The notes under the pieces are model-generated. The model had not been told where the DNA came from. It did no database searches and worked only from the letters and a program-made list of their open reading frames with translations. From a virus, in UHGV virus genome UHGV-1368434: a DNA stretch of 50,546 nt; one strand, written 5' to 3'. Position numbers and translations under genes: made by a program. Every line of letters starts with the position of its first letter. Position 1 is the first letter of the stretch. Of the stretch, positions 4,213 through 28,755 are shown piece after piece.

Positions 4213-4947
4213 ATGTATGAAGTAAATGGTGTGAAATATGATGAAAATATAAATACAAACAAAACAAACACAGAACAAGGATGGAATACACAGGAACAGC
4301 AACCATACATGGGGACACAAAGAAACAAACGTATGCAAGAAAACATTGCAGAAGAAGTATATATAAAACTTGATGAACACATGCAGAAAGCATTAAGTTT
4401 CCATGAACAGCTTGCAGATTATTTCTGTTTCCTCGGATTACAAGGGTTCAAAAGAAAGTTAGAATGTCAGTATATGGATGAATGTGCAAACAAAAGAAAG
4501 CTTCACCATAAATATATAAATCTTCACCAGAAATTAATTCCGTTAAGACAAGTACAGTTTCCACAGATGATTCCTAGAGATTGGAGTAAATACACAACAG
4601 ATGATGTGAATGACAGTGTTCTTCCTAAATTCGTGAAGAATGCAATGGAACAGTACAAACAATGGGAACATGAAACAAAAGAACTGTATGAAGAACAGCG
4701 GCATAAATGCATGAACAATGGAATGGGAGCAGATGCAGATTACATTTCAAGACTCATACAGGATGTAACAAAAGAGTTAAAAGAAATAAACAGAATGTGT
4801 GAACAGCTTAATGGAACAGGATATGATGTGATAGCAATTCACAGTATGCAGGACAAATACCACAACAAATATAAAAACAAATATGATGATACTTATACAG
4901 ATAAGTGGAAGAAGAAAGAAACAAAACATAACAAAACAAATAAATAA
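4213..4947 (+). CDS. Hypothetical protein (N/K-rich termini, helical core)
   Basis: AGGAGGG RBS. 244 aa. The core (LSFHEQLADYFCFLGLQGFKRKLECQYMDE) could be a ferritin-like or helical bundle. No confident family assignment. Confidence 0.45.
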   Translation: MYEVNGVKYDENINTNKTNTEQGWNTQEQQPYMGTQRNKRMQENIAEEVYIKLDEHMQKALSFHEQLADYFCFLGLQGFKRKLECQYMDECANKRKLHHKYINLHQKLIPLRQVQFPQMIPRDWSKYTTDDVNDSVLPKFVKNAMEQYKQWEHETKELYEEQRHKCMNNGMGADADYISRLIQDVTKELKEINRMCEQLNGTGYDVIAIHSMQDKYHNKYKNKYDDTYTDKWKKKETKHNKTNK

Positions 4948-5042
4948 AATAAAGCACAAGGCTATATATTATATATAATATGATTAATATATTTATATAT
5001 TTTATATAGCTTTATTTATTTTAAAATATTTTATAAAAAGTA

Positions 5043-5070
5043 TTGACTTTTGTTTTAAATATGTTATAAT
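5043..5070 (+). promoter_or_regulatory. SigA-type promoter (TTGACT, 16-nt spacer with TGn, TATAAT)
   Basis: TTGACT at 5043-5048 and TATAAT at 5065-5070. Followed by a CA-rich leader and AGGAGG before the ATG at 5120. Confidence 0.55.
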
Positions 5071-5119
5071 ATAATCAAGTTAAAGGAAAGCAAACAAAAC
5101 AAACTAGGAGGAAGAACAA

Positions 5120-5461
5120 ATGAAGAAAAGAACATTTAAAACAGAAATGAAATTAAATTTAGCAGAGCCTAAATTAAACAAAAACAATACACTTGAGGAA
5201 TATACAGAACAGTTGTTAGATGAGAATGAATATTATAATGTAAAGGCAATCTGTTCAATGGCATTTATTATGAATGATAAAGAATTTATTTATTTCAAAA
5301 ATAATTTGTTAAAAGATTTTGATTTTTTAAAAGATGTTCCTTGTGGATATGAAGAAGATTACATGCAATATGTTATAATGATTGTAAATGAAGAAACAAA
5401 ACAAAAGTTTTTTGTAAATACACAAGGTTATAGCTATGCAAGATATTGTTTATTCGATTAA
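5120..5461 (+). CDS. Early hypothetical protein
   Basis: AGGAGG RBS. 113 aa, own promoter, no recognisable domains. Confidence 0.5.
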   Translation: MKKRTFKTEMKLNLAEPKLNKNNTLEEYTEQLLDENEYYNVKAICSMAFIMNDKEFIYFKNNLLKDFDFLKDVPCGYEEDYMQYVIMIVNEETKQKFFVNTQGYSYARYCLFD

Positions 5462-5476
5462 AAAAATATAATTAAG

Positions 5477-5508
5477 GGGTTGACAAAATCAACCCTTTGA
5501 TATATAAT
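5477..5508 (+). promoter_or_regulatory. Composite element: terminator hairpin (5477-5498) embedding the -35 of a TTGACA-17-TATAAT promoter (5480-5508)
   Basis: 7-bp stem GGGTTGA / TCAACCC with a CAAAA loop followed by TTT. TTGACA at 5480-5485 lies inside the stem, and TATAAT at 5503-5508 follows exactly 17 nt later. Confidence 0.5.
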
Positions 5509-5559
5509 TAAATCAAGTTAAGAGATAACAAACACAAAACAGAAAAGGGGATAACAAAG

Positions 5560-5847
5560 ATGAAGAAATTTACAGGATATGCAAAGGTAGCAGTAATTGA
5601 TAGAGATGGAAATACAAATCCGTGGTGTGGAACAAACAAAGATGATGAAAGTAATTACTATGTTTTCAAGTATTGGAGCAAAGGTTCATATGAAAGAGTT
5701 TATGTAAATGATTATAAGCGTAGAACACTTGGTTATATTGATTTGAAAACAGAAGCAGTTGAAACAGATTATTCTAAAAATAGTGATGTAATGAGAACAA
5801 TTAATTTCTTTTTAGAAAATTATGAAATTGATGTTGACAACAAATAA
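5560..5847 (+). CDS. Early hypothetical protein
   Basis: AAAAGGGG RBS. 95 aa. Confidence 0.5.
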   Translation: MKKFTGYAKVAVIDRDGNTNPWCGTNKDDESNYYVFKYWSKGSYERVYVNDYKRRTLGYIDLKTEAVETDYSKNSDVMRTINFFLENYEIDVDNK

Positions 5848-5862: not shown

Positions 5863-5906
5863 AGTTTTAGAAACAAAAAAAGAAAACAAATTAGGAGGAT
5901 AACAAA

Positions 5907-7609: not shown

Positions 7610-8563
7610 ATGATAAGAACATATGGAGGAAAGGAACTTGCGAAAATATTAATCTATTATGGAATTGTTGAAGAAATAACAACAACAGAGTTTAATATAA
7701 TATGTCCTTTCCATGATGATATAAACCCATCAATGAGAATTTGTTTAGATGATGGAACATTTTTTTGTTTTGGTTGTGAAGTAAAAGGCAATGCATTAGA
7801 TTTTGTTATGAAAGCACACCCGGAGCTAAATGACCTACAAGCATGTTGTCTGTTAGAACAAATATTACATAGTGATAAAATAGAAAAGCTACAGATAAAG
7901 GTTAAAAGAAAGCGAAAGAAACAAAGTAAGCAAGCATTGATTGAAGCTAAGGATTATTATTATGGACTAAAAACAACAGATTGGAATGAAGCAAACAGTA
8001 AGGATGAAAAACAAATAATTGAATACATGAAGAAACGCGGATTCAGTAAACGTGCATTGAATGTTTCAAAGTGTAAATACAACTATAATGTTGCATATCC
8101 ATTTATTTTTCCTATATTAGACAATGGGAAGTTTATGGGATGGGTAGGTAGAACAATGAACCCGCATGTTGAAAAGAAAAGAAAGTATTTATACAATGAG
8201 GGATTTAGAAAGCGTGACACATTATGTGGAACATATGAAGAGAACTGCATTCCATATATATGTGAGGGATACATGGATTATTTAAGTCTTAAAACAAGAG
8301 GACATATAAAAAATGTTGTTGCAATACTTGGATGGCATATATCAGATGAACAAGTGAACAAATTAAAACAAAAAGGAATTACAACAGTAATATCTGCATT
8401 AGATAATGATGAATGCGGAACAAAAGGAACAGAGTATTTAAAGCGGTTTTTTAACGTTATACGCTTTGATTATCCAGATAATAAGAAAGACGTGGGGGAA
8501 ATGTCAGAGGAAGAAATAAAAGCCGCTAAACAGCGTTCTAGGAGGGTCAGAGCATGGTACTAA
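7610..8563 (+). CDS. DNA primase (CHC2 zinc finger + Toprim domain, DnaG-like)
   Basis: CPFHDD...CFGC zinc-binding motif at the N-terminus. Toprim motifs ICEGYMDYLSL and ALDNDECGTKG follow. Confidence 0.8.
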   Translation: MIRTYGGKELAKILIYYGIVEEITTTEFNIICPFHDDINPSMRICLDDGTFFCFGCEVKGNALDFVMKAHPELNDLQACCLLEQILHSDKIEKLQIKVKRKRKKQSKQALIEAKDYYYGLKTTDWNEANSKDEKQIIEYMKKRGFSKRALNVSKCKYNYNVAYPFIFPILDNGKFMGWVGRTMNPHVEKKRKYLYNEGFRKRDTLCGTYEENCIPYICEGYMDYLSLKTRGHIKNVVAILGWHISDEQVNKLKQKGITTVISALDNDECGTKGTEYLKRFFNVIRFDYPDNKKDVGEMSEEEIKAAKQRSRRVRAWY

Positions 8564-8937
8564 GATATAGAGTGAATTGTAAAATGTGTTTCTATCATAA
8601 GGATACGCTTGAAAAATTAGTGATTGACAGAGAGATAGGTGGAGAGTATAATGAAGAGAGTGAAGAATACAAACTGATTTGTATGGATTATGAAGTTATG
8701 TTTGGATTTAAACGTGATGAAGATAAAGCAAGTTTTGATGAAATGCTTCTAACAGAGCTTGTAAAAAGAGCAAAACAAAAAATGCGTGAAACAATAGATA
8801 GAATTAACGCTGTAATTAAAAAGTGTTATCTTGAAGATGCAAATGCAGTTGTAGAGTTCGGTGGTTATATCATAAATCCAAAACAGTTTTGTGCAGTAGA
8901 AATCGGTGAGTATAAAACAAACATATCAAAAGAATAA
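8554..8937 (+). CDS. Hypothetical protein
   Basis: 127-aa ORF that overlaps the primase stop. Confidence 0.4.
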   Translation: MVLRYRVNCKMCFYHKDTLEKLVIDREIGGEYNEESEEYKLICMDYEVMFGFKRDEDKASFDEMLLTELVKRAKQKMRETIDRINAVIKKCYLEDANAVVEFGGYIINPKQFCAVEIGEYKTNISKE

Positions 8938-8950
8938 AAGGAGAAACAAC

Positions 8951-9754
8951 ATGGGAAAAATTAAGTTATCAGACATTAAAAGCGAAATTAGTAAGAGTGG
9001 AACAAGTAAAGGAAAATTTATGTTTTTCAAAGAGGATTCCAAAGCAAGAGTGAGATTCCTAACAGATATGGAGGATGGTTTGGAAATCAAGTTCCATGAT
9101 AGTTTTGCTTTAGGTGTGAATGTTCCATGCCAAGAAGAGTTTGGCAGAGAATGTGAGTATTGTGAGGACGAAAATTTAAGGACACGAAAAATGTATGTTT
9201 GGAGTGTCTATGATTTCGAAAGCAAAGAAGTGAAGCTGTTAATGGCGGCGGTTAATAACTGTTCACCAGTTCCAGCACTTGCATCATTATATGAAACATA
9301 TGGAACACTTTTAGATAGAGATTATGAGATTAAAAGAATTGGAAAAGGACAGAACACAACATATTCCGTTATTCCATTAGACAAAGCAAAATTTAGAAAC
9401 AACAAAATAAAACCGTTGTCTGATTCAGCAATTTTAAAATATATTGATAAGGCATATCCAGCAGATAACAATGAAGATTTTGAGGAAGAGGATGCACCTA
9501 AGAAAAAATCAAACAAAACAAAAACAAAAGCCAAAACAAAAGTAGAAGAAACAGATGATTGGGATGAAGAAGAAGATGAAACAAACGATTATGAAAGCAT
9601 GAAGCCACAGGAGCTTTACAAGCTGTGTAAAGAGCGAGATATTGATTGTAAACCAAAGAAGTCAAAAGAATATTATATTGATCTTTTGGAAGAAGCAGAC
9701 GAAGAAAATGATTCTGATGATTGGGATGAAGAAGATGATGATTGGGAAGAGTAA
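8951..9754 (+). CDS. Single-stranded DNA-binding protein, T4 gp32-like, with C-terminal HeH motif and acidic DDDWEE tail
   Basis: ATG at 8951 after AAAGGAGAAAC; the track start at 8906 lies inside the previous gene. ARVRFLTD...FHDSF resembles gp32's AVIRFLP...NHGF. Also has a Cys4 cluster (CQEEFGRECEYCED) and an acidic tail ending DDDWEE. Confidence 0.5.
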   Translation: MGKIKLSDIKSEISKSGTSKGKFMFFKEDSKARVRFLTDMEDGLEIKFHDSFALGVNVPCQEEFGRECEYCEDENLRTRKMYVWSVYDFESKEVKLLMAAVNNCSPVPALASLYETYGTLLDRDYEIKRIGKGQNTTYSVIPLDKAKFRNNKIKPLSDSAILKYIDKAYPADNNEDFEEEDAPKKKSNKTKTKAKTKVEETDDWDEEEDETNDYESMKPQELYKLCKERDIDCKPKKSKEYYIDLLEEADEENDSDDWDEEDDDWEE

Positions 9755-9846: not shown

Positions 9847-11040
9847 ATGGGAAATTTTTGGGATATCCACAGGCATGATGAATATTCATTGTTTGATGGA
9901 TTCGGTAAGCCAGAACAGTTAGCAAGACATGCAAAAGAATTAGGATATAGAGCGTTAGGCGTAAGCAATCATGGTTCTATCAGTGGATTGATAAAACATT
10001 ACCAAGCGTGTAATGAAGTTGGAATAAAACCAGTTATGGGATGTGAGATATATTTTCAACCGAAATTTAATAAAGAAAATACACAAAGAAAATCGTATCA
10101 TTTAAATTTGTTTGTTAAAAACTTACAGGGGTATAAAAACTTGTGTCACATAATGACAGAAGCAAATACAAAGCAATTTTATTACAAACCAATAGTTGAT
10201 TTTAAGCTACTTGAAAAATATTCAGATGGACTTATATGTACAACAGCTTGTATAGCAAGTGCAACGTCACAAGCTATTTTAAATGGTCATAGAAGCACAG
10301 CAGAGCGTTTATTAGATAAGTTTAAGGAAATATTCAAAGATGATTTGTATGTTGAAATACAGCCATATAAAATAGATGCACAGGGTACACAGCAAAGAAC
10401 AGATTATGAACTTATGGGAATGGCAAAAAGAAAGAAGATAAAATGTATTTTAACAAGCGATTCACATTTTGGAAGTAAGGAAGATTTTGATACATATTGT
10501 AAAATGCATGAAATCGGAAAAACAACATTAGATGTAAAAAGAACATACAGTGAAAGGTATATGCCTACAGAATATGAGATAACAGAACGGTTTGCAAACA
10601 TCTATAAAAAGAAGTTTAAAAGACCAATGGAAATGGCAGAACGATTTGTAGGCAACATGAAAGAAATATATAACAAAGTAGAAGATAACATATTAGATGG
10701 ATTGGAACTAGAACTTCCTAAAATATCAGATGATGGAGCGAAACAGCTTGAAACATTGACAAAACAGGGATTGAAAAACAGAAACAAATGGAATAAAGAA
10801 TATTGGAAAAGATGCAAAGAAGAATTGGAAGTAATTAATTACCATGGTTTTGCAGACTATTTCCTTATTGTTAGAGATTATATAACATGGGCGAAAGAAA
10901 ATGGAATTGAAACAGGAAAGGGAAGAGGTTCTGTTTGTAATTGTCTTGTAGCCTATGCAGTAGGAATCACAGAAGTTGACAGTATAAAATATAACCTTGA
11001 TTTCAGCAGATTTATGCGTAAGGAAAAGAAGTCATTGCCT
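9847..11040 (+). CDS. DNA polymerase III alpha-like (DnaE-type) catalytic subunit, exon 1 (PHP domain and N-terminal palm)
   Basis: PHP motifs (HRHDEYSLFDG, GVSNHGS). The exon ends at ...KEKKSLP, homologous to E. coli DnaE ...ERVSMP just before PDFDVDF. The in-frame continuation resumes at 11865. Confidence 0.75.
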
Positions 11041-11864
11041 AAACTTAATTGGGCATCATTCGTGAACATTGCTTAATGGTGTGTATTATTATAATATGCT
11101 AACGGTATCAGAAAAATAAGACTCCTTATTGAAATGTTACAACAAGATAATAGGGCATAAGACCGTAGACGAATAATCTGACTAAGAAACCCTAAACCAG
11201 TGATGGTGAGATAGAGGGAATACCGTGCCAAGTCTATATAGAAAGGAAGTGAATTAGATGTTTAAAAGTATGGAAGAGTTTGACCACCATTCAATAGATG
11301 AATATGGAAATGTTTTAAATGAGAAAACAGGAAATATATTAAAACCTTATGTTGGAAGTGGCGGTTATTTATATGTGAAGCCATGTGAAAACAATGTAAC
11401 AAAACATTTGTCAATACATAGAGCAGTAGCGAAATATTTTTGCAAAGGATATAAACCAGAGCTAGTTGTTGACCACATAGATGGAAATGTAAAGAACAAC
11501 TATTATGAAAATCTTAGATGGTGTAAGCAAGCAGACAATTTGAAGCATGGATATGAGAGAAGAAAAGATACACCATTCAGAAATTATAGACCATGCAAAT
11601 TGTATGTTGGAAATAAATTGATAGATGAATTTCTAAGTATAACAGAAGCTGTGGAATATGCAGAAAAACACTACAATGTTAAAAGAACAATGTTACATAA
11701 ACATCTAGTTTATGGAAATGTTCGTATAGAAAGGTGTAACGACTAGCTTGTGAAGAGAGTAACAAGTGTAGGGATGGAGATAAGCACCATTCCGAAGTGC
11801 GAATGCCACGAGAGTGGAAGATATAGTCTAGCCTTGATAGTTTGGAAACGAACGACTAAGGTAG
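11041..11864 (+). mobile_element. Group I-type self-splicing intron carrying an HNH homing endonuclease gene
   Basis: The junction ...TCATTGCCT | GATATTGAT... rebuilds the conserved SLP-DIDLDF (DnaE SMP-DFDVDF). The exon ends in U and the intron ends in G. A possible P1 pairs exon UGCCU with intron GGGCA 10 nt in. An internal 162-aa HNH ORF has its own RBS. Confidence 0.6.
11258..11746 (+). CDS. HNH homing endonuclease (intron-encoded)
   Basis: AAAGGAAG RBS. Motif DHIDGN...NLRWC..ADN typical of the HNH_3 family. Paralogous to 30920..31654. Confidence 0.7.
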   Translation: MFKSMEEFDHHSIDEYGNVLNEKTGNILKPYVGSGGYLYVKPCENNVTKHLSIHRAVAKYFCKGYKPELVVDHIDGNVKNNYYENLRWCKQADNLKHGYERRKDTPFRNYRPCKLYVGNKLIDEFLSITEAVEYAEKHYNVKRTMLHKHLVYGNVRIERCND

Positions 11865-13391
11865 GATATTGATTTAGATTTCGAACGAGATAGGAGACAG
11901 GAAGTAATTGACTACGTTATAAACAAATATCCAAACAAAGCAATACAGATTTGTTCTTATGGAATGTATGGAGTTGATAATCTTGTGAATGATTTGGCAA
12001 GTGTCTGTAACTTAAAAACAACAAAAGATGTTGATTGGTTTGAAGCAGATGAAAATAAAAAAGTAATTGCAGAAATTAAGTCATATATTAAGGGATTCAT
12101 AGTAGATGATGAACTGAATATGAGTAACTTATTGAATGGATACAGAACAGAAGAGTTTAATGAAAAGTATGACAACATTATAAAACATTTCTCAAAACTT
12201 TATGGAAAAATAAAGTACCTTGGAAAACATGCGGCTGGGGTTGCTGTGGTTGGAACAGATATAAGTGATTATACTTGTATTATTATGAGAGATAGAAAGA
12301 CAGGAGCATTAAGCAGTTGTTTCGATAAAGATGATTTAGAGCATATTAATTGTGTAAAGTTTGATATGCTTGGACTTAAAACAATGTCAGAAATGCGTGA
12401 GCTTAGAGAGAAAACAGGGCATACAATAACAGAAGAAGATGAAGAAAGCAAAGAGGTTATAGAGGGATTCAGAGAGGGAAGAACAGACGGAATATTTCAG
12501 ATGGAAAAGTCAGCACCTAAAAAGATTCTTGATATGATTCAGTGTGATTGTATAAATGATATTATAGCGGTGAACGCATTAAACAGACCAGCACCATTAC
12601 AGTTGCATATGCATGAAACATATGCACATAATAAACTTTCTGATAAAGTAGATAAGAACACACCATACTACAAATATACACAAGAAACATATGGAACAAT
12701 GTTATATCAAGAACAAACAGTTGAAGTAGCACAGAAAGTTGGACACTTAACTCCGCAACAGAGTTTTGATATGCTAAAGATTATGAAGAAAGCAGAGAAC
12801 TTGACAAAACCGGAATACATTCCAATTATTGAACAAATGAAAAAAGATTTTTTCAGAGGATGTAGGCAAGAGGGATTAACAAGAGAGCAAACAAACAATA
12901 TATGGGCAAGTATGCTAATCTATGGCTTCAACAAGGGACATAGCACTGGCTATGCGTTAATAAGTATTGACCAGATGTATTATAAGGTGCATTATCCAAC
13001 ACAGTTTTGGTATGTTAAAATGAAGTATGCAGATAATGATGCAGATATCTTTAAATATTCACAGTTTGCAGTAAAAGATGGTGCTGTGGTTATGTTACCG
13101 CATGTAAACTATTCAGCTAAAACTTCATTGCGTAAAATGGATGGAGAGGACGTTATACAGCAAGGGTTGAGTATTATTAAGGGTATTGGAGAAAAAGCCG
13201 CAGAAACCATAGAAGAAGAGCGCAGAAAGGGTGTTTTCAAATCTTATGATGATTTCTATGACAGATGTAAAGGAAGAAGTGTTACAACAAGAGTGATTGA
13301 TATTCTGAAAGAACAGGGTGCACTTGAATTTAACAAAAACAAATACATGAGCAGAGTAGTAAAATATAATAGCACATTAATGGCGAGGTAG
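11865..13391 (+). CDS. DNA polymerase III alpha-like (DnaE-type), exon 2 (palm/fingers, HhH)
   Basis: Frame is open from 11865 (DIDLDFERDRRQEVIDYV..., compare DnaE PDFDVDFCMEKRDQVIEHV). Carries GKHAAGVAV and FDMLGLKT motifs and a C-terminal HhH (GLSIIKGIGEKAAETI). The track's 11964 start is internal. Confidence 0.75.
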   Translation, partial: DIDLDFERDRRQEVIDYVINKYPNKAIQICSYGMYGVDNLVNDLASVCNLKTTKDVDWFEADENKKVIAEIKSYIKGFIVDDELNMSNLLNGYRTEEFNEKYDNIIKHFSKLYGKIKYLGKHAAGVAVVGTDISDYTCIIMRDRKTGALSSCFDKDDLEHINCVKFDMLGLKTMSEMRELREKTGHTITEEDEESKEVIEGFREGRTDGIFQMEKSAPKKILDMIQCDCINDIIAVNALNRPAPLQLHMHETYAHNKLSDKVDKNTPYYKYTQETYGTMLYQEQTVEVAQKVGHLTPQQSFDMLKIMKKAENLTKPEYIPIIEQMKKDFFRGCRQEGLTREQTNNIWASMLIYGFNKGHSTGYALISIDQMYYKVHYPTQFWYVKMKYADNDADIFKYSQFAVKDGAVVMLPHVNYSAKTSLRKMDGEDVIQQGLSIIKGIGEKAAETIEEERRKGVFKSYDDFYDRCKGRSVTTRVIDILKEQGALEFNKNKYMSRVVKYNSTLMAR

Positions 13392-13602: not shown

Positions 13603-14112
13603 ATGGAACGATGTGATGGTTGTGAGTATGAATATGATGGATTATGTACAGCATTTGGGAAAGAGTGTAATGAAATAGTTTTCTGCACTGTAACAACAAG
13701 TAGAGTAAAAGAGGAAGTTTCTAGAATTCATACGATTGGAAAGGAGAAAATAGAAGTGAAAAAGAAAAATGAAGAACATAATGTTGAAACAGCAGAACAG
13801 AACAAACAGGATAAGATTAATCCAGCACATTATAAAGAGAGAACAAGCATTGAATGTATTGATACAATGCGAATTGCATTCGGAGATATGGATGTGGCAA
13901 TTTATTGTATTGTAAATGCGTACAAGTATTTGTGGAGGCATAAATATAAAAATAGGTTAGAGGATTTGAAAAAAGCTGAATGGTATCTTGAGAGGTATAC
14001 AGATTTAACAAATGATAAGGAATGGATAAAATTGCCGGATGAAAAAGCAGAAACGATAAAAGAACTTGTTAAAAAAGGAAGAGAGGAATACATACATGGC
14101 AAAAGGAACTAA
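13603..14112 (+). CDS. DUF3310-like protein (NPxHY / IExID motifs) with N-terminal Cys cluster
   Basis: INPAHYKERTSIECIDTM matches the DUF3310 signature found in phage proteins such as T7 gp1.7. N-terminus has CDGCEY...C...C. Confidence 0.45.
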   Translation: MERCDGCEYEYDGLCTAFGKECNEIVFCTVTTSRVKEEVSRIHTIGKEKIEVKKKNEEHNVETAEQNKQDKINPAHYKERTSIECIDTMRIAFGDMDVAIYCIVNAYKYLWRHKYKNRLEDLKKAEWYLERYTDLTNDKEWIKLPDEKAETIKELVKKGREEYIHGKRN

Positions 14113-15016
14113 TAAAGAGGGAATACTAAAGTTAATTGCAGAAATTGATAAAAAAGAAAATGGCAGTGTTTATAGTTTGGGAAAGAAAACGGCAGATTTG
14201 GATATTCCAAGATGGAGCACTGGATTGGTTGACCTTGATAACATTATTGGTGGTGGAATTCCAAAAGGAAGAATTATTGAGATTTTCGGTGCAGAGAGTG
14301 CTGGGAAAACAACATTAGGCTATCAGCTATGCGCCCAACATGAGTTGTGTCTTGTAGAACCCGTAGAGGGTACGTTCTCAACAGAAAGAGCGAAGTTGTT
14401 CGGTAATAGACCAAAACAAATGATTATATATAGAGCGCCATATGGAGAAAAAGCATTCAACAGAGCAATAAGATTTGCAGAAGAGGGTATTCCGTTAATT
14501 ATGATTGATAGTGTACCATCATTACAGCCAAAGGATGATATTGACAAGGTTAGAAAAGCGGTAAACACAGACAGTGAACAGGAAATGCGAATCGGTGGAG
14601 TTGCAAGATTAATGGACAAGTATTTACCAACATTGGAATACATCATTGAACAGACAGGAACAACGGTTGTATTTATTAATCAGATTCGTGATAAAATGAA
14701 TGCGTTACCTTTTGGTGATAACATTAAGACCCCGGGTGGTCATAAGTTATCACATGCAGATTCACTTAAGTTGCAAGTAGCAAGAAAGGGATATATAGAA
14801 ATTCCTAACCATAACCCATTCAATACAGAAGCGAAAGAACGTATAGGAATGATTATGAAAGTAAAAGTGGTAAAAAGCAAAGTTTGTAATCCAATGCAGA
14901 GTTGTGAAATCCCATTATTCTATGAGCGTGGTTTTGTAGATTTTGCAGACCTTGATTCTGTAAGAAAAGAAATCATGGATGAACACAAGAAAAAATACAA
15001 GGAAATGTTAGAGTGA
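14096..15016 (+). CDS. RecA-family recombinase (UvsX/RecA/Sak4-like)
   Basis: ATG at 14096 after AAAGGAAGAGAGG (the track's 14066 is a TTG). Walker A GRIIEIFGAESAGKTTL, Walker B LIMIDSV, and RecA-like FINQIRDK...TPGG. Confidence 0.75.
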   Translation: MAKGTNKEGILKLIAEIDKKENGSVYSLGKKTADLDIPRWSTGLVDLDNIIGGGIPKGRIIEIFGAESAGKTTLGYQLCAQHELCLVEPVEGTFSTERAKLFGNRPKQMIIYRAPYGEKAFNRAIRFAEEGIPLIMIDSVPSLQPKDDIDKVRKAVNTDSEQEMRIGGVARLMDKYLPTLEYIIEQTGTTVVFINQIRDKMNALPFGDNIKTPGGHKLSHADSLKLQVARKGYIEIPNHNPFNTEAKERIGMIMKVKVVKSKVCNPMQSCEIPLFYERGFVDFADLDSVRKEIMDEHKKKYKEMLE

Positions 15017-28523: not shown

Positions 28524-28595
28524 TGCCTAGTAGCCAAACGGAAAGGCAGAGGACTTTGATTCCTTAATGTGTTGGTTCGAGTCCAACCTAGGCAG
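28524..28595 (+). tRNA. tRNA-Gln (anticodon UUG)
   Basis: Hand-folded cloverleaf. Acceptor UGCCUAG / CUAGGCA with a U1:A72 pair as in bacterial tRNA-Gln. Anticodon stem GAGGA / UCCUU, loop CUUUGAU. T-arm GUUGG-UUCGAGU-CCAAC. Confidence 0.65.
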
Positions 28596-28682: not shown

Positions 28683-28755
28683 GGATTATTAGTTCAATGG
28701 TTAGAGCAACCGCCTCATAAGCGGTAAGTTATAGGTTCGAATCCTATATAATCCA
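28683..28755 (+). tRNA. tRNA-Met/Ile2 (anticodon CAU)
   Basis: Acceptor GGAUUAU / AUAAUCC, D-arm GUUC..GAGC, anticodon stem ACCGC / GCGGU with loop CUCAUAA, T-arm AUAGG-UUCGAAU-CCUAU. The G1:C72 pair argues against an initiator. Confidence 0.7.

What the first reader, a model, noticed from the sequence alone, without database searches (positions are those of the whole stretch)
9847..13391. DnaE-type polymerase gene split by a group I intron carrying an HNH homing endonuclease
The two polymerase ORFs are separated by 824 nt. Joining ...KEKKSLP (ending at 11040) to DIDLDFERDRRQEVIDYV (starting at 11865) recreates the universally conserved DnaE SMP-DFDVDF block exactly. The upstream exon ends in U and the intron ends in G. 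A short P1-like pairing (exon UGCCU with intron GGGCA) exists, and a free-standing HNH ORF with its own RBS sits inside the intron. Known phage introns sit in pol, nrd or td genes, but an intron in a DnaE-type polymerase at this palm position is not a classic described site.
Basis: partly seen in the sequence, partly recalled or inferred. Interest (0 to 1): 0.7.

Follow-up and report, generated by a model that had tools for sequence, protein, structure and literature searches.

The report
Mobile group I intron splitting phage DnaE polymerase
The phage's replicative DNA polymerase gene is interrupted, two codons before its catalytic aspartates, by a self-splicing-type (group I) intron that carries its own homing endonuclease gene; this is a real but ordinary mobile element, already present and partly annotated in other phage genomes.

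Summary
Positions 11041-11864 (824 nt) interrupt a DnaE-type polymerase gene exactly between Pfam PF07733 positions 102 and 103. The joined 906-aa product aligns without a gap to Taq Pol III alpha. The insert is a group I intron of IA2-like architecture with an I-HmuI-like HNH gene in the P6 loop.

Rfam does not score the window copy. It does score two compact ORF-less homologues over the full model (48.8 bits, E=1.6e-11; 23.9 bits, E=4.6e-4).

A covariation test on 18 distinct homologues supports every core helix, including the P3/P7 pseudoknot: 89.6% of cells are paired against 33-42% in slid controls, and 0 of 500 shuffles reach the observed score. P1 co-varies with the exon.

The last codons of the HNH ORF (11733-11745) are P6 3', J6/7 and P7 5'.

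Among 70 related polymerase loci, 53 are empty, 10 carry intron plus ORF, and 7 carry the intron with the ORF missing or degraded. Four of the empty sites are in near-identical phages.

The same intron at the same site occurs in Bacillus phage G, Enterococcus phages EF1/EF5 and Clostridium phages CS266P1-P4. It is therefore a new member of a known kind. Splicing itself has not been tested.

The parts
9847..11040 (+). 5' exon of the DnaE-type polymerase gene (398 codons: PHP domain and the first part of the Pol III alpha palm). The apparent ORF runs on to 11076 only by read-through into the intron.
   Evidence: PF02811, and PF07733 positions 2-102 ending at residue 398.
11036..11055 (+). P1. 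Exon strand UGCCU (11036-40) pairs with the internal guide GGGCA (11051-55). U11040.G11051 is the wobble pair at the 5' splice site. AUU (11048-50) could form a 3-bp P10 with GAU (11865-67).
   Evidence: P1 co-varies with the exon in other lineages (UACCU/GGGUA, AACUCGGU/GCCGAGUU, AACUGGGU/GCUCAGUU and others). P10 is 7-12 bp in other members.
11041..11864 (+). The whole group I intron, 824 nt.
11057..11064 (+). P3 5' strand (CAUUCGUG). It pairs with 11798-11805.
   Evidence: helix 1: 98.6% paired, with compensatory changes at 5 of 8 pairs.
11067..11099 (+). Two extra local hairpins between P3 and P4, provisionally named P3.1 (11067-70/11075-78) and P3.2 (11081-87/11093-99).
   Evidence: helices 2 and 3: both 100% paired with compensatory changes. 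They are not part of the canonical consensus, and I could not establish what they correspond to.
11102..11226 (+). P4 (ACGGUAU 11102-08 with AUACCGU 11220-26), enclosing a large P5 extension (11109-11219).
   Evidence: helix 4: 96.8% paired, with CG to UA covariation. reproduces P4 and the inner hairpins in a single-sequence fold.
11227..11229 (+). P6 5' strand (GCC). It pairs with GGU at 11733-35. The P6 loop holds the ORF.
   Evidence: helix 5: 100% paired. Variants seen are GCC/GGU, GUC/GAU, GCG/CGU and GCU/AGU.
11258..11746 (+). Intron-encoded HNH homing endonuclease gene (162 aa, I-HmuI-like). An RBS-like AAGGAAG lies at 11243-49.
   Evidence: PF13392; PDB 1U3E, E=9.2e-15, residues 9-100.
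11733..11745 (+). P6 3' (GGU), J6/7 (GUA) and the P7 5' strand (A11739, bulged C11740, GACUA 11741-45). This is the classical 'R' element, and it lies inside the last codons of the HNH ORF.
   Evidence: (ORF-less copies keep this element), and helix 6 (100% paired, AU to GC switch across the bulge).
11747..11793 (+). P7.1 (11747-51/11762-66), GUA linker (11768-70) and P7.2 (11771-77/11787-93, with invariant loop AGAUAAGCA). This is the IA2 signature.
   Evidence: helix 8 (95.2% paired, 4 pairs compensatory). (single-sequence fold). PMC3428280 for the criterion.
11798..11805 (+). P3 3' strand (UGCGAAUG). It crosses P7, forming the P3/P7 pseudoknot.
   Evidence: helix 1.
11806..11817 (+). P8 hairpin (CCAC-GAGA-GUGG).
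   Evidence: Hairpins of different sequence occupy the same place in CS266P4 and EF5. The pair count is noisy (66%) because helix lengths differ.
11818..11829 (+). J8/7 (AAGAUA) and the P7 3' strand (UAGUCU). This is the classical 'S' element and forms the guanosine-binding helix.
11831..11864 (+). P9 (GCCUU 11831-35 with AAGGU 11858-62), P9a (GUUUG-GAAA-CGAAC, 11840-53) and the terminal omega-G (11864).
   Evidence: z=-3.57 for the 3' segment; CCCU/AGGG version in CS266P4.
11865..13391 (+). 3' exon (508 codons). It starts with DIDLDF, the catalytic aspartate block. The rest of the palm, the fingers and the HhH domain follow.
   Evidence: The first in-frame ATG/GTG/TTG is at 11964.

Best explanation
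Positions 11041-11864 are a mobile group I intron of IA2-like architecture. It sits in the phage's DnaE-type (Pol III alpha) polymerase gene, between the Pro codon CCU and the first codon of the catalytic D-x-D-x-D block.

Inferred mechanism:
1. The gene is transcribed as one pre-mRNA.
2. The intron RNA folds into P1, the P3/P7 pseudoknot, P4-P6, P7.1/P7.2, P8 and P9.
3. An external guanosine bound in P7 attacks after U11040, at the U.G pair of P1.
4. The freed exon end then attacks after omega-G11864.
5. The exons are joined as CCU|GAU, and the mRNA encodes a 906-aa polymerase.

The P6 loop carries an I-HmuI-like HNH endonuclease gene with its own ribosome-binding site. Its last codons overlap P6 3', J6/7 and P7 5', so translating the ORF and folding the ribozyme should be mutually exclusive.

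By analogy with I-HmuI, I-BasI and I-PfoP3I, the enzyme is inferred to nick intron-less alleles near the insertion site during mixed infection. Recombinational repair would then copy the intron into the empty site (homing).

Shown here: the gene anatomy, the covarying RNA structure, homology of the ORF to I-HmuI, and the presence of empty, ORF-less and ORF-containing alleles in near-identical phages. Inferred only: splicing, nicking and homing.
For: Protein colinearity:
- The PF07733 profile is split exactly at positions 102/103.
- The joined product aligns without a gap to Taq Pol III alpha across the junction.
- Dulem virus 36 has an uninterrupted homologue.

Splicing is required:
- TAG lies directly upstream of 11865.
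- There is no in-frame start before 11964, so an unspliced message cannot give a fragment containing DIDLDF.

RNA structure:
- Eighteen distinct homologues were tested. 89.6% of 964 cells are paired, against 33-42% when partners are slid by 1-3 columns.
- The covariation score is 0.365 against 0.045-0.081 for the slid controls, and 0 of 500 shuffles reach it.
- P3, P3.1, P3.2, P4, P6, P7 and P7.2 are 95-100% paired, each with compensatory changes.
- P7 switches between A..U and G..C across the bulged nucleotide.
- P1 tracks the exon sequence, with U.G at the cleavage site in every lineage.
- The 3' segment folds on its own into P7.1, P7.2, P8, P9 and P9a (z=-3.57).

Rfam: RF00028 matches the compact homologues L035 (48.8 bits, E=1.6e-11, model 1-253) and L039 (23.9 bits, E=4.6e-4).

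Endonuclease: HNH_3 and I-HmuI 1U3E at E=9.2e-15.

Mobility:
- Of 70 related loci, 53 are empty, 10 have intron plus ORF, and 7 have the intron with the ORF missing or degraded.
- Among flanks at least 95% identical to the window, the counts are 8 (ORF), 5 (no ORF) and 4 (empty).
- The same ribozyme at the same site carries GIY-YIG/NUMOD3 genes in other lineages.
Against: - RF00028 gives no hit on the window at either threshold.
- It also gives no hit on L009, the ORF-less near-identical copy.
- The best homologue, L035, is 1.2 bits below the gathering score.
- Two covarying hairpins lie between P3 and P4, which is not canonical, so the subgroup assignment is only 'IA2-like'.
- P10 is only 3 bp in the window.
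- P7.1, P8 and P9 score 58-74% paired in the alignment, and the three inner P9a pairs only 33%. I attribute this to differing helix lengths, but I did not correct for it.
- There are no RNA data, so splicing, self-splicing without protein help, and endonuclease activity are all untested.
Confidence: 0.93

Rival explanations
1. The gene is genuinely split by a free-standing HNH endonuclease gene, as in the mobE/seg insertions that split T-even phage genes. There is no RNA splicing, and two polypeptides assemble into the polymerase.
For: GenBank annotators treated the homologues as two separate proteins (CS266P4: hypothetical / I-HmuI / hypothetical; EF5: two 'DNA polymerase III alpha subunit' CDSs). 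The HNH ORF has its own RBS.
Against: - The downstream frame has TAG at 11862-64 and no start codon before 11964. The catalytic DIDLDF block would therefore never be translated.
- The non-coding flanks of the ORF form a covarying group I core.
- ORF-less copies keep the 343-nt RNA element at the same site. A free-standing endonuclease gene would not leave that behind.
Confidence: 0.03
2. It is a group I intron relic that no longer splices. The polymerase gene would then be a pseudogene in this phage, and replication would rely on another polymerase.
For: RF00028 does not score this copy or its ORF-less twin. P10 is weak, at 3 bp.
Against: - All core helices are intact in the window.
- In the 50-codon windows compared on either side of the junction, the exons are 98-100% identical in protein to intron-less alleles, with no frameshift or stop.
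- The HNH ORF is full length.
- The same copy recurs in eight related contigs.
- I saw no other replicative polymerase among the replication-module genes I scanned, but I did not scan the whole window.
Confidence: 0.03
3. The insert is another kind of intervening element: an intein, a group II intron, or a translational bypass.
For: DnaE genes are classic intein hosts. Phage G gp329 does contain an intein about 40 codons upstream of this site.
Against: - The insert has stop codons in the polymerase frame (11074-76, 11862-64).
- It has no Hint or intein domain.
- Rfam finds no group II or other families.
- There is no reverse-transcriptase ORF.
- 824 nt is far beyond any known bypass.
Confidence: 0.005

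Closest known systems
The same intron in deposited genomes: Bacillus phage G (JN638751, gp329 'DnaE-like' / gp330 'homing endonuclease'), Enterococcus phages EF1/EF5 (MF001358/MF001361, 'HNH homing endonuclease # Phage intron') and Clostridium phages CS266P1-P4 (OP172775-8)
   Same: The ribozyme core is homologous, with identical R and S elements, the GUGAAC…GGUGU block and the L7.2 loop. The insertion point is the same, …(L/Y)P|D(I/V)D, with the ORF in the P6 loop. A review mentions self-splicing introns in the phage G DNA polymerase gene (PMC7824862).
   Different: The host polymerases are very divergent. The window's joined protein matches EF5 only weakly (20-28% identity over partial tblastn hits). 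Phage G's copy carries a GIY-YIG/NUMOD3 gene instead of an HNH gene. The window phage is a roughly 50-kb genome and is only about 72% identical in DNA to CS266P. In the paper library I searched, none of these copies has a published structure or splicing assay.
IA2 introns of phage family-A DNA polymerase genes with HNH nicking endonucleases: SPO1 (I-HmuI), SP82 (I-HmuII), Bastille (I-BasI) and Pf-WMP3 (I-PfoP3I)
   Same: These are phage replicative polymerase genes with an IA2 architecture, in which P7.1 and P7.2 are linked by G-U-A. The ORF starts in the P6 loop and extends into P7 (PMC3428280). The endonuclease is homologous to I-HmuI. The insertion lies in a highly conserved active-site region.
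   Different: The host gene is an unrelated polymerase family: C-family Pol III alpha rather than A-family Pol I. The target sequence is therefore different. This intron has two additional hairpins between P3 and P4 and a large P5 extension. No biochemistry has been done.
Twort orf142-I2 and T4 td/nrdB/sunY IA2 ribozymes (recalled from my own knowledge, not tested here)
   Same: P7 has a bulged nucleotide next to the G-C guanosine-binding pair, followed by UAGUCU. The P7.1-P7.2 peripheral domain is present. P6 has the form GC(N)-AAG…AAG-GU(G).
   Different: Those introns have a P2 hairpin before P3 and a short J3/4. Here there is no P2, and two hairpins follow the P3 5' strand.
DnaE inteins and cyanobacterial split DnaE inteins
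   Same: These are also selfish elements that interrupt Pol III alpha genes at conserved motifs.
   Different: They are removed at the protein level by a Hint domain and sit at other positions. The window insert has in-frame stops and no Hint domain.

Membership tests
Group I intron | The 5' splice site follows a U that forms a U.G wobble pair with the internal guide sequence (P1). | tested here: met
   U11040.G11051, with P1 UGCCU/GGGCA. P1 co-varies with the exon across lineages.
Group I intron | A terminal guanosine (omega-G) at the 3' splice site. | tested here: met
   G11864 precedes GAU. All 37 complete copies recovered by the 5'-core motif scan end in G before GAY-RUN-GAY.
Group I intron | A conserved core: P3/P7 pseudoknot, P4-P6 domain, P8 and J8/7, supported by covariation. 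| tested here: met
   89.6% paired against 33-42% in slid controls, and 0 of 500 shuffles reach the observed score. P3 is 98.6% paired, P4 96.8%, P6 100% and P7 100%, each with compensatory changes.
Group I intron | A guanosine-binding P7 with a G-C pair next to a bulged nucleotide, plus the R and S consensus elements. | tested here: met
   R is GGUGUAACGACUA (11733-45). S is AAGAUAUAGUCU (11818-29). The pair across the bulge switches between A-U and G-C.
Group I intron | A score at or above the Rfam RF00028 gathering threshold (an operational criterion, not a defining one). | tested here: inconclusive
   The window gives no hit, because a 490-nt ORF and a 110-nt P5 extension interrupt the model. 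The ORF-less twin L009 gives no hit. The compact homologues L035 (48.8 bits against a cut-off of 50, E=1.6e-11) and L039 (23.9 bits, E=4.6e-4) match full length.
Group I intron | Guanosine-dependent splicing of the RNA. | not testable with these tools
   This needs RT-PCR or an in vitro splicing assay.
Subgroup IA2 | P7.1 and P7.2 lie between P7 and the P3 3' strand and are linked by G-U-A (criterion as stated in PMC3428280). | tested here: met
   P7.1 is 11747-66, GUA is 11768-70 and P7.2 is 11771-93. P7.2 is 95% paired with 4 compensatory pairs. The single-sequence fold agrees.
Subgroup IA2 | Canonical connectivity, with the P3 5' strand joined to P4 by a short J3/4. | tested here: not met
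   Two covarying hairpins (11067-78 and 11081-99) lie between P3 and P4 (helices 2 and 3). I therefore call the intron 'IA2-like' rather than a certified IA2 member.
HNH homing endonuclease (I-HmuI-like) | An HNH catalytic motif and homology to a characterised intron endonuclease. | tested here: met
   PF13392, E=4.5e-9. PDB 1U3E I-HmuI, E=9.2e-15, including the vvdHidGNvkNNyyeNLrw motif.
HNH homing endonuclease (I-HmuI-like) | Site-specific nicking or cleavage of the intron-less allele. | not testable with these tools
   Candidate substrates exist: the empty alleles L046, L047, L048 and L110.
Mobile (homing) intron | Sporadic distribution, with precise empty sites in close relatives. | tested here: met
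   Counts are 53 empty, 10 intron plus ORF and 7 intron without a full ORF. Four empty sites occur at 98-100% flank identity.
DnaE-type Pol III alpha (host gene) | PHP, the Pol III alpha palm with catalytic aspartates, the fingers and the HhH domain, all colinear with solved structures. | tested here: met
   (2hpi at E=2.5e-103; 4jom covering residues 4-885).
Intein | An in-frame Hint splicing domain. | tested here: not met
   There are stops in frame and no Hint or intein Pfam hit.

The most novel reading that the evidence does not exclude
The intron belongs to a structurally distinct offshoot of IA2 introns. Its features are two covarying hairpins inserted between P3 and P4, an invariant GGUGU block, and an invariant L7.2 loop (AGAUAAGCA) that might form a tertiary pairing with that block. 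Rfam's group I model largely misses the group. It appears to have specialised on a single target: the codons just upstream of the catalytic D-x-D of phage Pol III alpha genes, across very divergent phage lineages. Along the way it has exchanged HNH and GIY-YIG cargo genes. As a family it has not been described or assayed, and its HNH would be a new I-HmuI-type nicking enzyme with a DnaE target.
Probability: 0.4. Interest if true: 0.45.

Novelty: new member of a known kind. Interest (0 to 1): 0.3.

Why it matters
**Annotation.** Automatic annotation of this phage group splits the replicative polymerase into two "hypothetical proteins" plus an endonuclease. Recognising the intron restores a single 906-aa enzyme.

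**Detection.** The case shows that RF00028 misses a widespread phage intron lineage. The 40 stretches of viral-contig DNA that matched the 5'-core motif (37 of them complete intron copies) could seed a better model.

**Evolution.** One metagenome (IMG 3300045988) holds empty, intron-only, degraded-ORF and intron-plus-ORF alleles of nearly identical phages. That is a compact natural snapshot of the homing-endonuclease life cycle. The same ribozyme also carries HNH or GIY-YIG cargo in different lineages.

**Limits.** None of this changes what is known about how group I introns work.

Tried and rejected
1. **First P7 assignment.** I first took 'cuGACUAag' at about 11178 as the P7 5' strand, with the ORF in a P7.x or P8 loop. 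EF5 has UUCUA there, and ORF-less copies show that the true R element is the 3' end of the ORF. The 11178 element is the P5 3' strand, and it co-varies with UCAG(A).
2. **Rfam on the window.** Rfam at gathering and at lax thresholds on the window, on 20 loci, and on L009 gave nothing. Only small search regions around compact copies gave RF00028 hits.
3. **Full-length MAFFT alignment (A1).** It misaligned the compact copies, so I replaced the P5 and P6 interiors with GAAA linkers (A2). P7.1, P8 and P9 remain imperfectly aligned there.
4. **Alternative P3.** An Azoarcus-like P3 of GGUGU with GCACC in the P7.2 loop could not be tested, because both blocks are invariant. It also conflicts with the covarying P7.2 stem. 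I kept it only as a possible tertiary contact.
5. **Literature.** Six full-text searches found no dedicated study of a Pol III alpha intron in phages. They returned only a passing remark on phage G (PMC7824862) and general reviews.
6. **Dulem virus 36 second insertion.** Rfam gave no group I hit on it.
Full report
**Observation**

The window carries three features on the + strand:
- An ORF at 9847-11076, whose first 398 residues match PHP and positions 2-102 of the Pol III alpha palm profile PF07733.
- An HNH_3 ORF at 11258-11746.
- A reading frame that opens at 11865, directly after a TAG. It matches PF07733 positions 103-260, then the finger and HhH domains.

The profile is therefore cut at one point, and the two halves lie 824 nt apart. 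Joining 11040 to 11865 gives a 906-aa protein. It aligns to Taq Pol III alpha (2hpi, E=2.5e-103) with no gap at the junction: 'fmrkekkslp|didldferdrrqevidyv' against '[28 protein letters not shown]'. The interruption lies immediately before the D-x-D-x-D block that holds the catalytic aspartates. That role for the block comes from my own knowledge of Pol III alpha, not from a test here.

The first in-frame ATG/GTG/TTG downstream is at 11964. Without removal of the insert at the RNA level, no polypeptide can contain that block.

**Anatomy**

Relatives made the structure readable.
- Clostridium phage CS266P4 and Enterococcus phage EF5 carry a homologous insert at the same codon boundary.
- Two motif scans of viral contigs returned 11 close and about 30 divergent copies.
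- In four close relatives the whole HNH ORF is replaced by a short hairpin, while 'AAGGUGUAACGACUAG' is kept.

The last codons of the window's ORF (AGG TGT AAC GAC TAG) are therefore the classical R element.

The resulting map of the window is:

| Element | Coordinates |
|---|---|
| P1 | 11036-40 / 11051-55 (U.G at the splice site) |
| P3 | 11057-64 / 11798-805 |
| P3.1 (extra hairpin) | 11067-78 |
| P3.2 (extra hairpin) | 11081-99 |
| P4 | 11102-08 / 11220-26 |
| P5 extension | 11109-11219, enclosed by P4 |
| P6 | 11227-29 / 11733-35, with the ORF in its loop |
| J6/7 | 11736-38 |
| P7 | A11739, bulged C11740, 11741-45 / 11824-29 |
| P7.1 | 11747-66 |
| GUA linker | 11768-70 |
| P7.2 | 11771-93 |
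| P8 | 11806-17 |
| J8/7 | 11818-23 |
| P9 / P9a | 11831-62 |
| omega-G | 11864 |

P3 and P7 cross each other, which is the pseudoknot typical of group I introns. P7.1 and P7.2 linked by G-U-A is the criterion used to assign phage introns to subgroup IA2. An ORF running from the P6 loop into P7 has a published precedent (PMC3428280).

**Statistical support**

I aligned 18 distinct copies, replacing only the variable P5 and P6 interiors with linkers (A2). I then counted pairs for this structure.
- 89.6% of 964 cells form standard pairs, against 33-42% when the 3' partners are slid by 1-3 columns.
- The covariation score is 0.365, against 0.045-0.081 for the slid controls.
- None of 500 shuffles reaches the observed pairing, covariation score or number of compensatory cells.

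| Helix | Cells paired |
|---|---|
| P3 | 98.6% (5 of 8 pairs compensatory) |
| P3.1 | 100% |
| P3.2 | 100% |
| P4 | 96.8% |
| P6 | 100% |
| P7 | 100% |
| P7.2 | 95.2% |

An anchor-based table that does not depend on any alignment shows the same pattern. P7 is A-c-GACUA/UAGUC-U or G-a-GACUA/UAGUC-C. P6 is GCC/GGU, GUC/GAU, GCG/CGU, GCU/AGU or GUU/AAU.

P1 follows the exon: UGCCU/GGGCA, UACCU/GGGUA, UGCCU/GGGCG, AACUCGGU/GCCGAGUU, AACUGGGU/GCUCAGUU, AACUAGGU/GCCUAGUU and AACUGCCU/GGGCAGUU.

The window's own 3' segment folds alone into P7.1, P7.2, P8, P9 and P9a (z=-3.57, 0 of 200 shuffles as stable). The P4-P5 domain is less distinctive (z=-1.47). P7.1, P8, P9 and the outer P9a pairs score only 58-74% paired in A2, and the three inner P9a pairs 33%. 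I attribute this to unequal helix lengths but did not correct for it.

**Rfam**

RF00028 does not score the window. It also fails on the ORF-less near-identical copy L009, which has the large P5 extension. It does match two compact ORF-less homologues over the full model:
- L035: 48.8 bits against a gathering score of 50, E=1.6e-11.
- L039: 23.9 bits, E=4.6e-4. Its polymerase flanks are 84-90% identical to the window's.

I read this as low sensitivity of the model for this lineage, not as evidence against group I. It does mean the window's own copy fails the operational Rfam test.

**Endonuclease and mobility**

The 162-aa ORF matches I-HmuI (PDB 1U3E, E=9.2e-15, residues 9-100), including the HNH motif. 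I-HmuI is the nicking endonuclease of the SPO1 DNA-polymerase intron (PMC3428280).

I surveyed 70 viral-contig loci encoding relatives of the window's polymerase:

| State | All 70 loci | Flanks at least 95% identical to the window |
|---|---|---|
| Precise empty site | 53 | 4 (L046, L047, L048, L110) |
| Intron plus ORF | 10 (includes L104, 656 nt, with a partly deleted ORF) | 8 |
| Intron with no or degraded ORF | 7 (262-438 nt) | 5 |

This is the sporadic, three-state pattern expected of a homing element.

All 17 intron-bearing alleles use the Pro codon CCU. 47 of the 53 empty alleles use CCA, CCG or CCC. This fits the need for a U at the splice site, co-conversion of flanking sequence, or both. 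I did not separate these explanations.

In other lineages the same ribozyme at the same site carries GIY-YIG/NUMOD3 genes. Their last codons also end in the R element (…VETN).

Joined exons from four very divergent hosts each give one continuous PF07733 match across the junction. The family is therefore tied to this one site in phage Pol III alpha genes.

**Mechanism (inferred)**

1. The replication module is co-directional: DnaG-type primase (7610-8563), the polymerase, DUF3310 and RecA. The polymerase gene is presumably transcribed as one precursor.
2. The intron folds and exogenous G attacks after U11040.
3. The exons are ligated after G11864.
4. The HNH gene is translated from its own RBS.

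Because the HNH reading frame ends inside P6/P7, ribosomes on the ORF should prevent ribozyme folding. A review notes that ORFs extending into core sequences are tightly controlled for this reason (PMC3984707).

**Rivals**

- A truly split gene with a free-standing endonuclease is contradicted by three facts: the downstream fragment has no start codon, the RNA core covaries, and the ORF-less 343-nt copies exist.
- A dead intron or pseudogene is unlikely. All helices and both exons are intact, and the copy recurs in eight contigs.
- An intein, a group II intron and translational bypass are excluded by the sequence itself.

**Comparison with what is known**

The same intron at the same site occurs in:
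- Bacillus phage G (gp329 'DnaE-like', …GKLP| … |DIDIDFC, with gp330 'homing endonuclease').
- Enterococcus phages EF1/EF5, annotated 'HNH homing endonuclease # Phage intron'.
- Clostridium phages CS266P1-P4.

A review cites self-splicing introns in the phage G DNA polymerase gene (PMC7824862). I found no paper that analyses the structure or splicing of a Pol III alpha intron, but the library is incomplete.

The finding is therefore a genuine, well-supported group I intron, and it is a new member of a known kind. The only unusual aspect is structural: two extra hairpins between P3 and P4, and the invariant GGUGU and L7.2 blocks. I could not match these to a published subgroup, and they may explain why Rfam misses the lineage.

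Noticed in passing
window 28524-28595 and 28683-28755 (+): Two tRNA genes, at 63 and 72.5 bits with Rfam RF00005. The phage carries its own tRNAs.
   Followed up: no
L003 (Dulem virus 36, PP511521) 4461-5609: This homologous polymerase is empty at the window's intron site. It has a 1149-nt insertion at GFNKGH|S (window residues 756/757) that encodes a LAGLIDADG-type protein (PF14528, E=1e-5). Neither Rfam nor my R/S motif scan finds a group I core there, so its nature is open.
   Followed up: partly
L002 (Enterococcus phage EF5, MF001361) about 4222-5211: A second insertion in the same polymerase gene, in the same region as the Dulem insertion. It has a GIY-YIG+HTH ORF (4388-5056) and an R/S-like pair (AAGAUAUAGUC at 5161). 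It is probably a second group I intron.
   Followed up: partly
L045 (Bacillus phage G, JN638751) gp329, and around position 5898: Between GPGRG and SAAGS, about 40 codons upstream of the intron site, gp329 contains an intein (C…HN|S; PF14890 at 43.7 bits, above its cut-off). A second R/S pair (CCCCAACGACUA … GAUAUAGUCU) after gp331 suggests another intron. This one gene therefore hosts an intein and at least two introns.
   Followed up: partly
Junction codon in L046-L115 and window 11038-11040: All 17 intron-bearing alleles have the Pro codon CCT. 47 of the 53 empty alleles have CCA, CCG or CCC. In near-identical phages, synonymous differences cluster right at the insertion site (for example ATT against ATC, TTA against CTT). 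This is compatible with co-conversion tracts, with endonuclease-resistant alleles, or with both.
   Followed up: partly
L001:3571-3573, L002:3097-3099, and the end of the intron in L039: In CS266P4, EF5 and several other copies the intron ends in …AUG. Annotators therefore start the downstream polymerase CDS on an ATG made of the last three intron bases. In the window the intron ends in …UAG, so that artefact is not possible.
   Followed up: yes
window 11078-11082 and 11778-11786: GGUGU (between the two extra hairpins) and the P7.2 loop AGAUAAGCA are invariant in nearly all of the 18 aligned copies. Only L024 and L041 vary in the AGAUAA part. GUGU and GCAC could pair as a tertiary contact, but because neither varies, covariation cannot test this.
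   Followed up: no
L004:approx. 355-366; L104: L004 has GGGAA instead of GGGCA in the guide sequence, which creates a G.A mismatch in P1. L104 has a 656-nt intron with a partly deleted ORF. These may be decaying copies or assembly errors.
   Followed up: no
L023 (IMGVR_UViG_3300026522_000001), minus strand around 2400-2700; L021; L043: A compact copy of the same ribozyme core sits in a different 5' context (…GCCACCCUAAAAUCU). It is followed by GGAGG and an ATG ORF instead of the DIDxD exon. This may be the intron family in another host gene, or a different ORF arrangement. L021 and L043 have the 5' core motif, but no R/S pair was found in the stored stretch.
   Followed up: no
window 8906-9754 and 14066-15016: The gene upstream of the polymerase encodes a 282-aa protein with a very acidic C-terminal tail and no Pfam hit. 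The RecA ORF as listed starts at a TTG overlapping the DUF3310 gene, but the real start is probably the ATG near 14096 (MAKGTNKEG).
   Followed up: no
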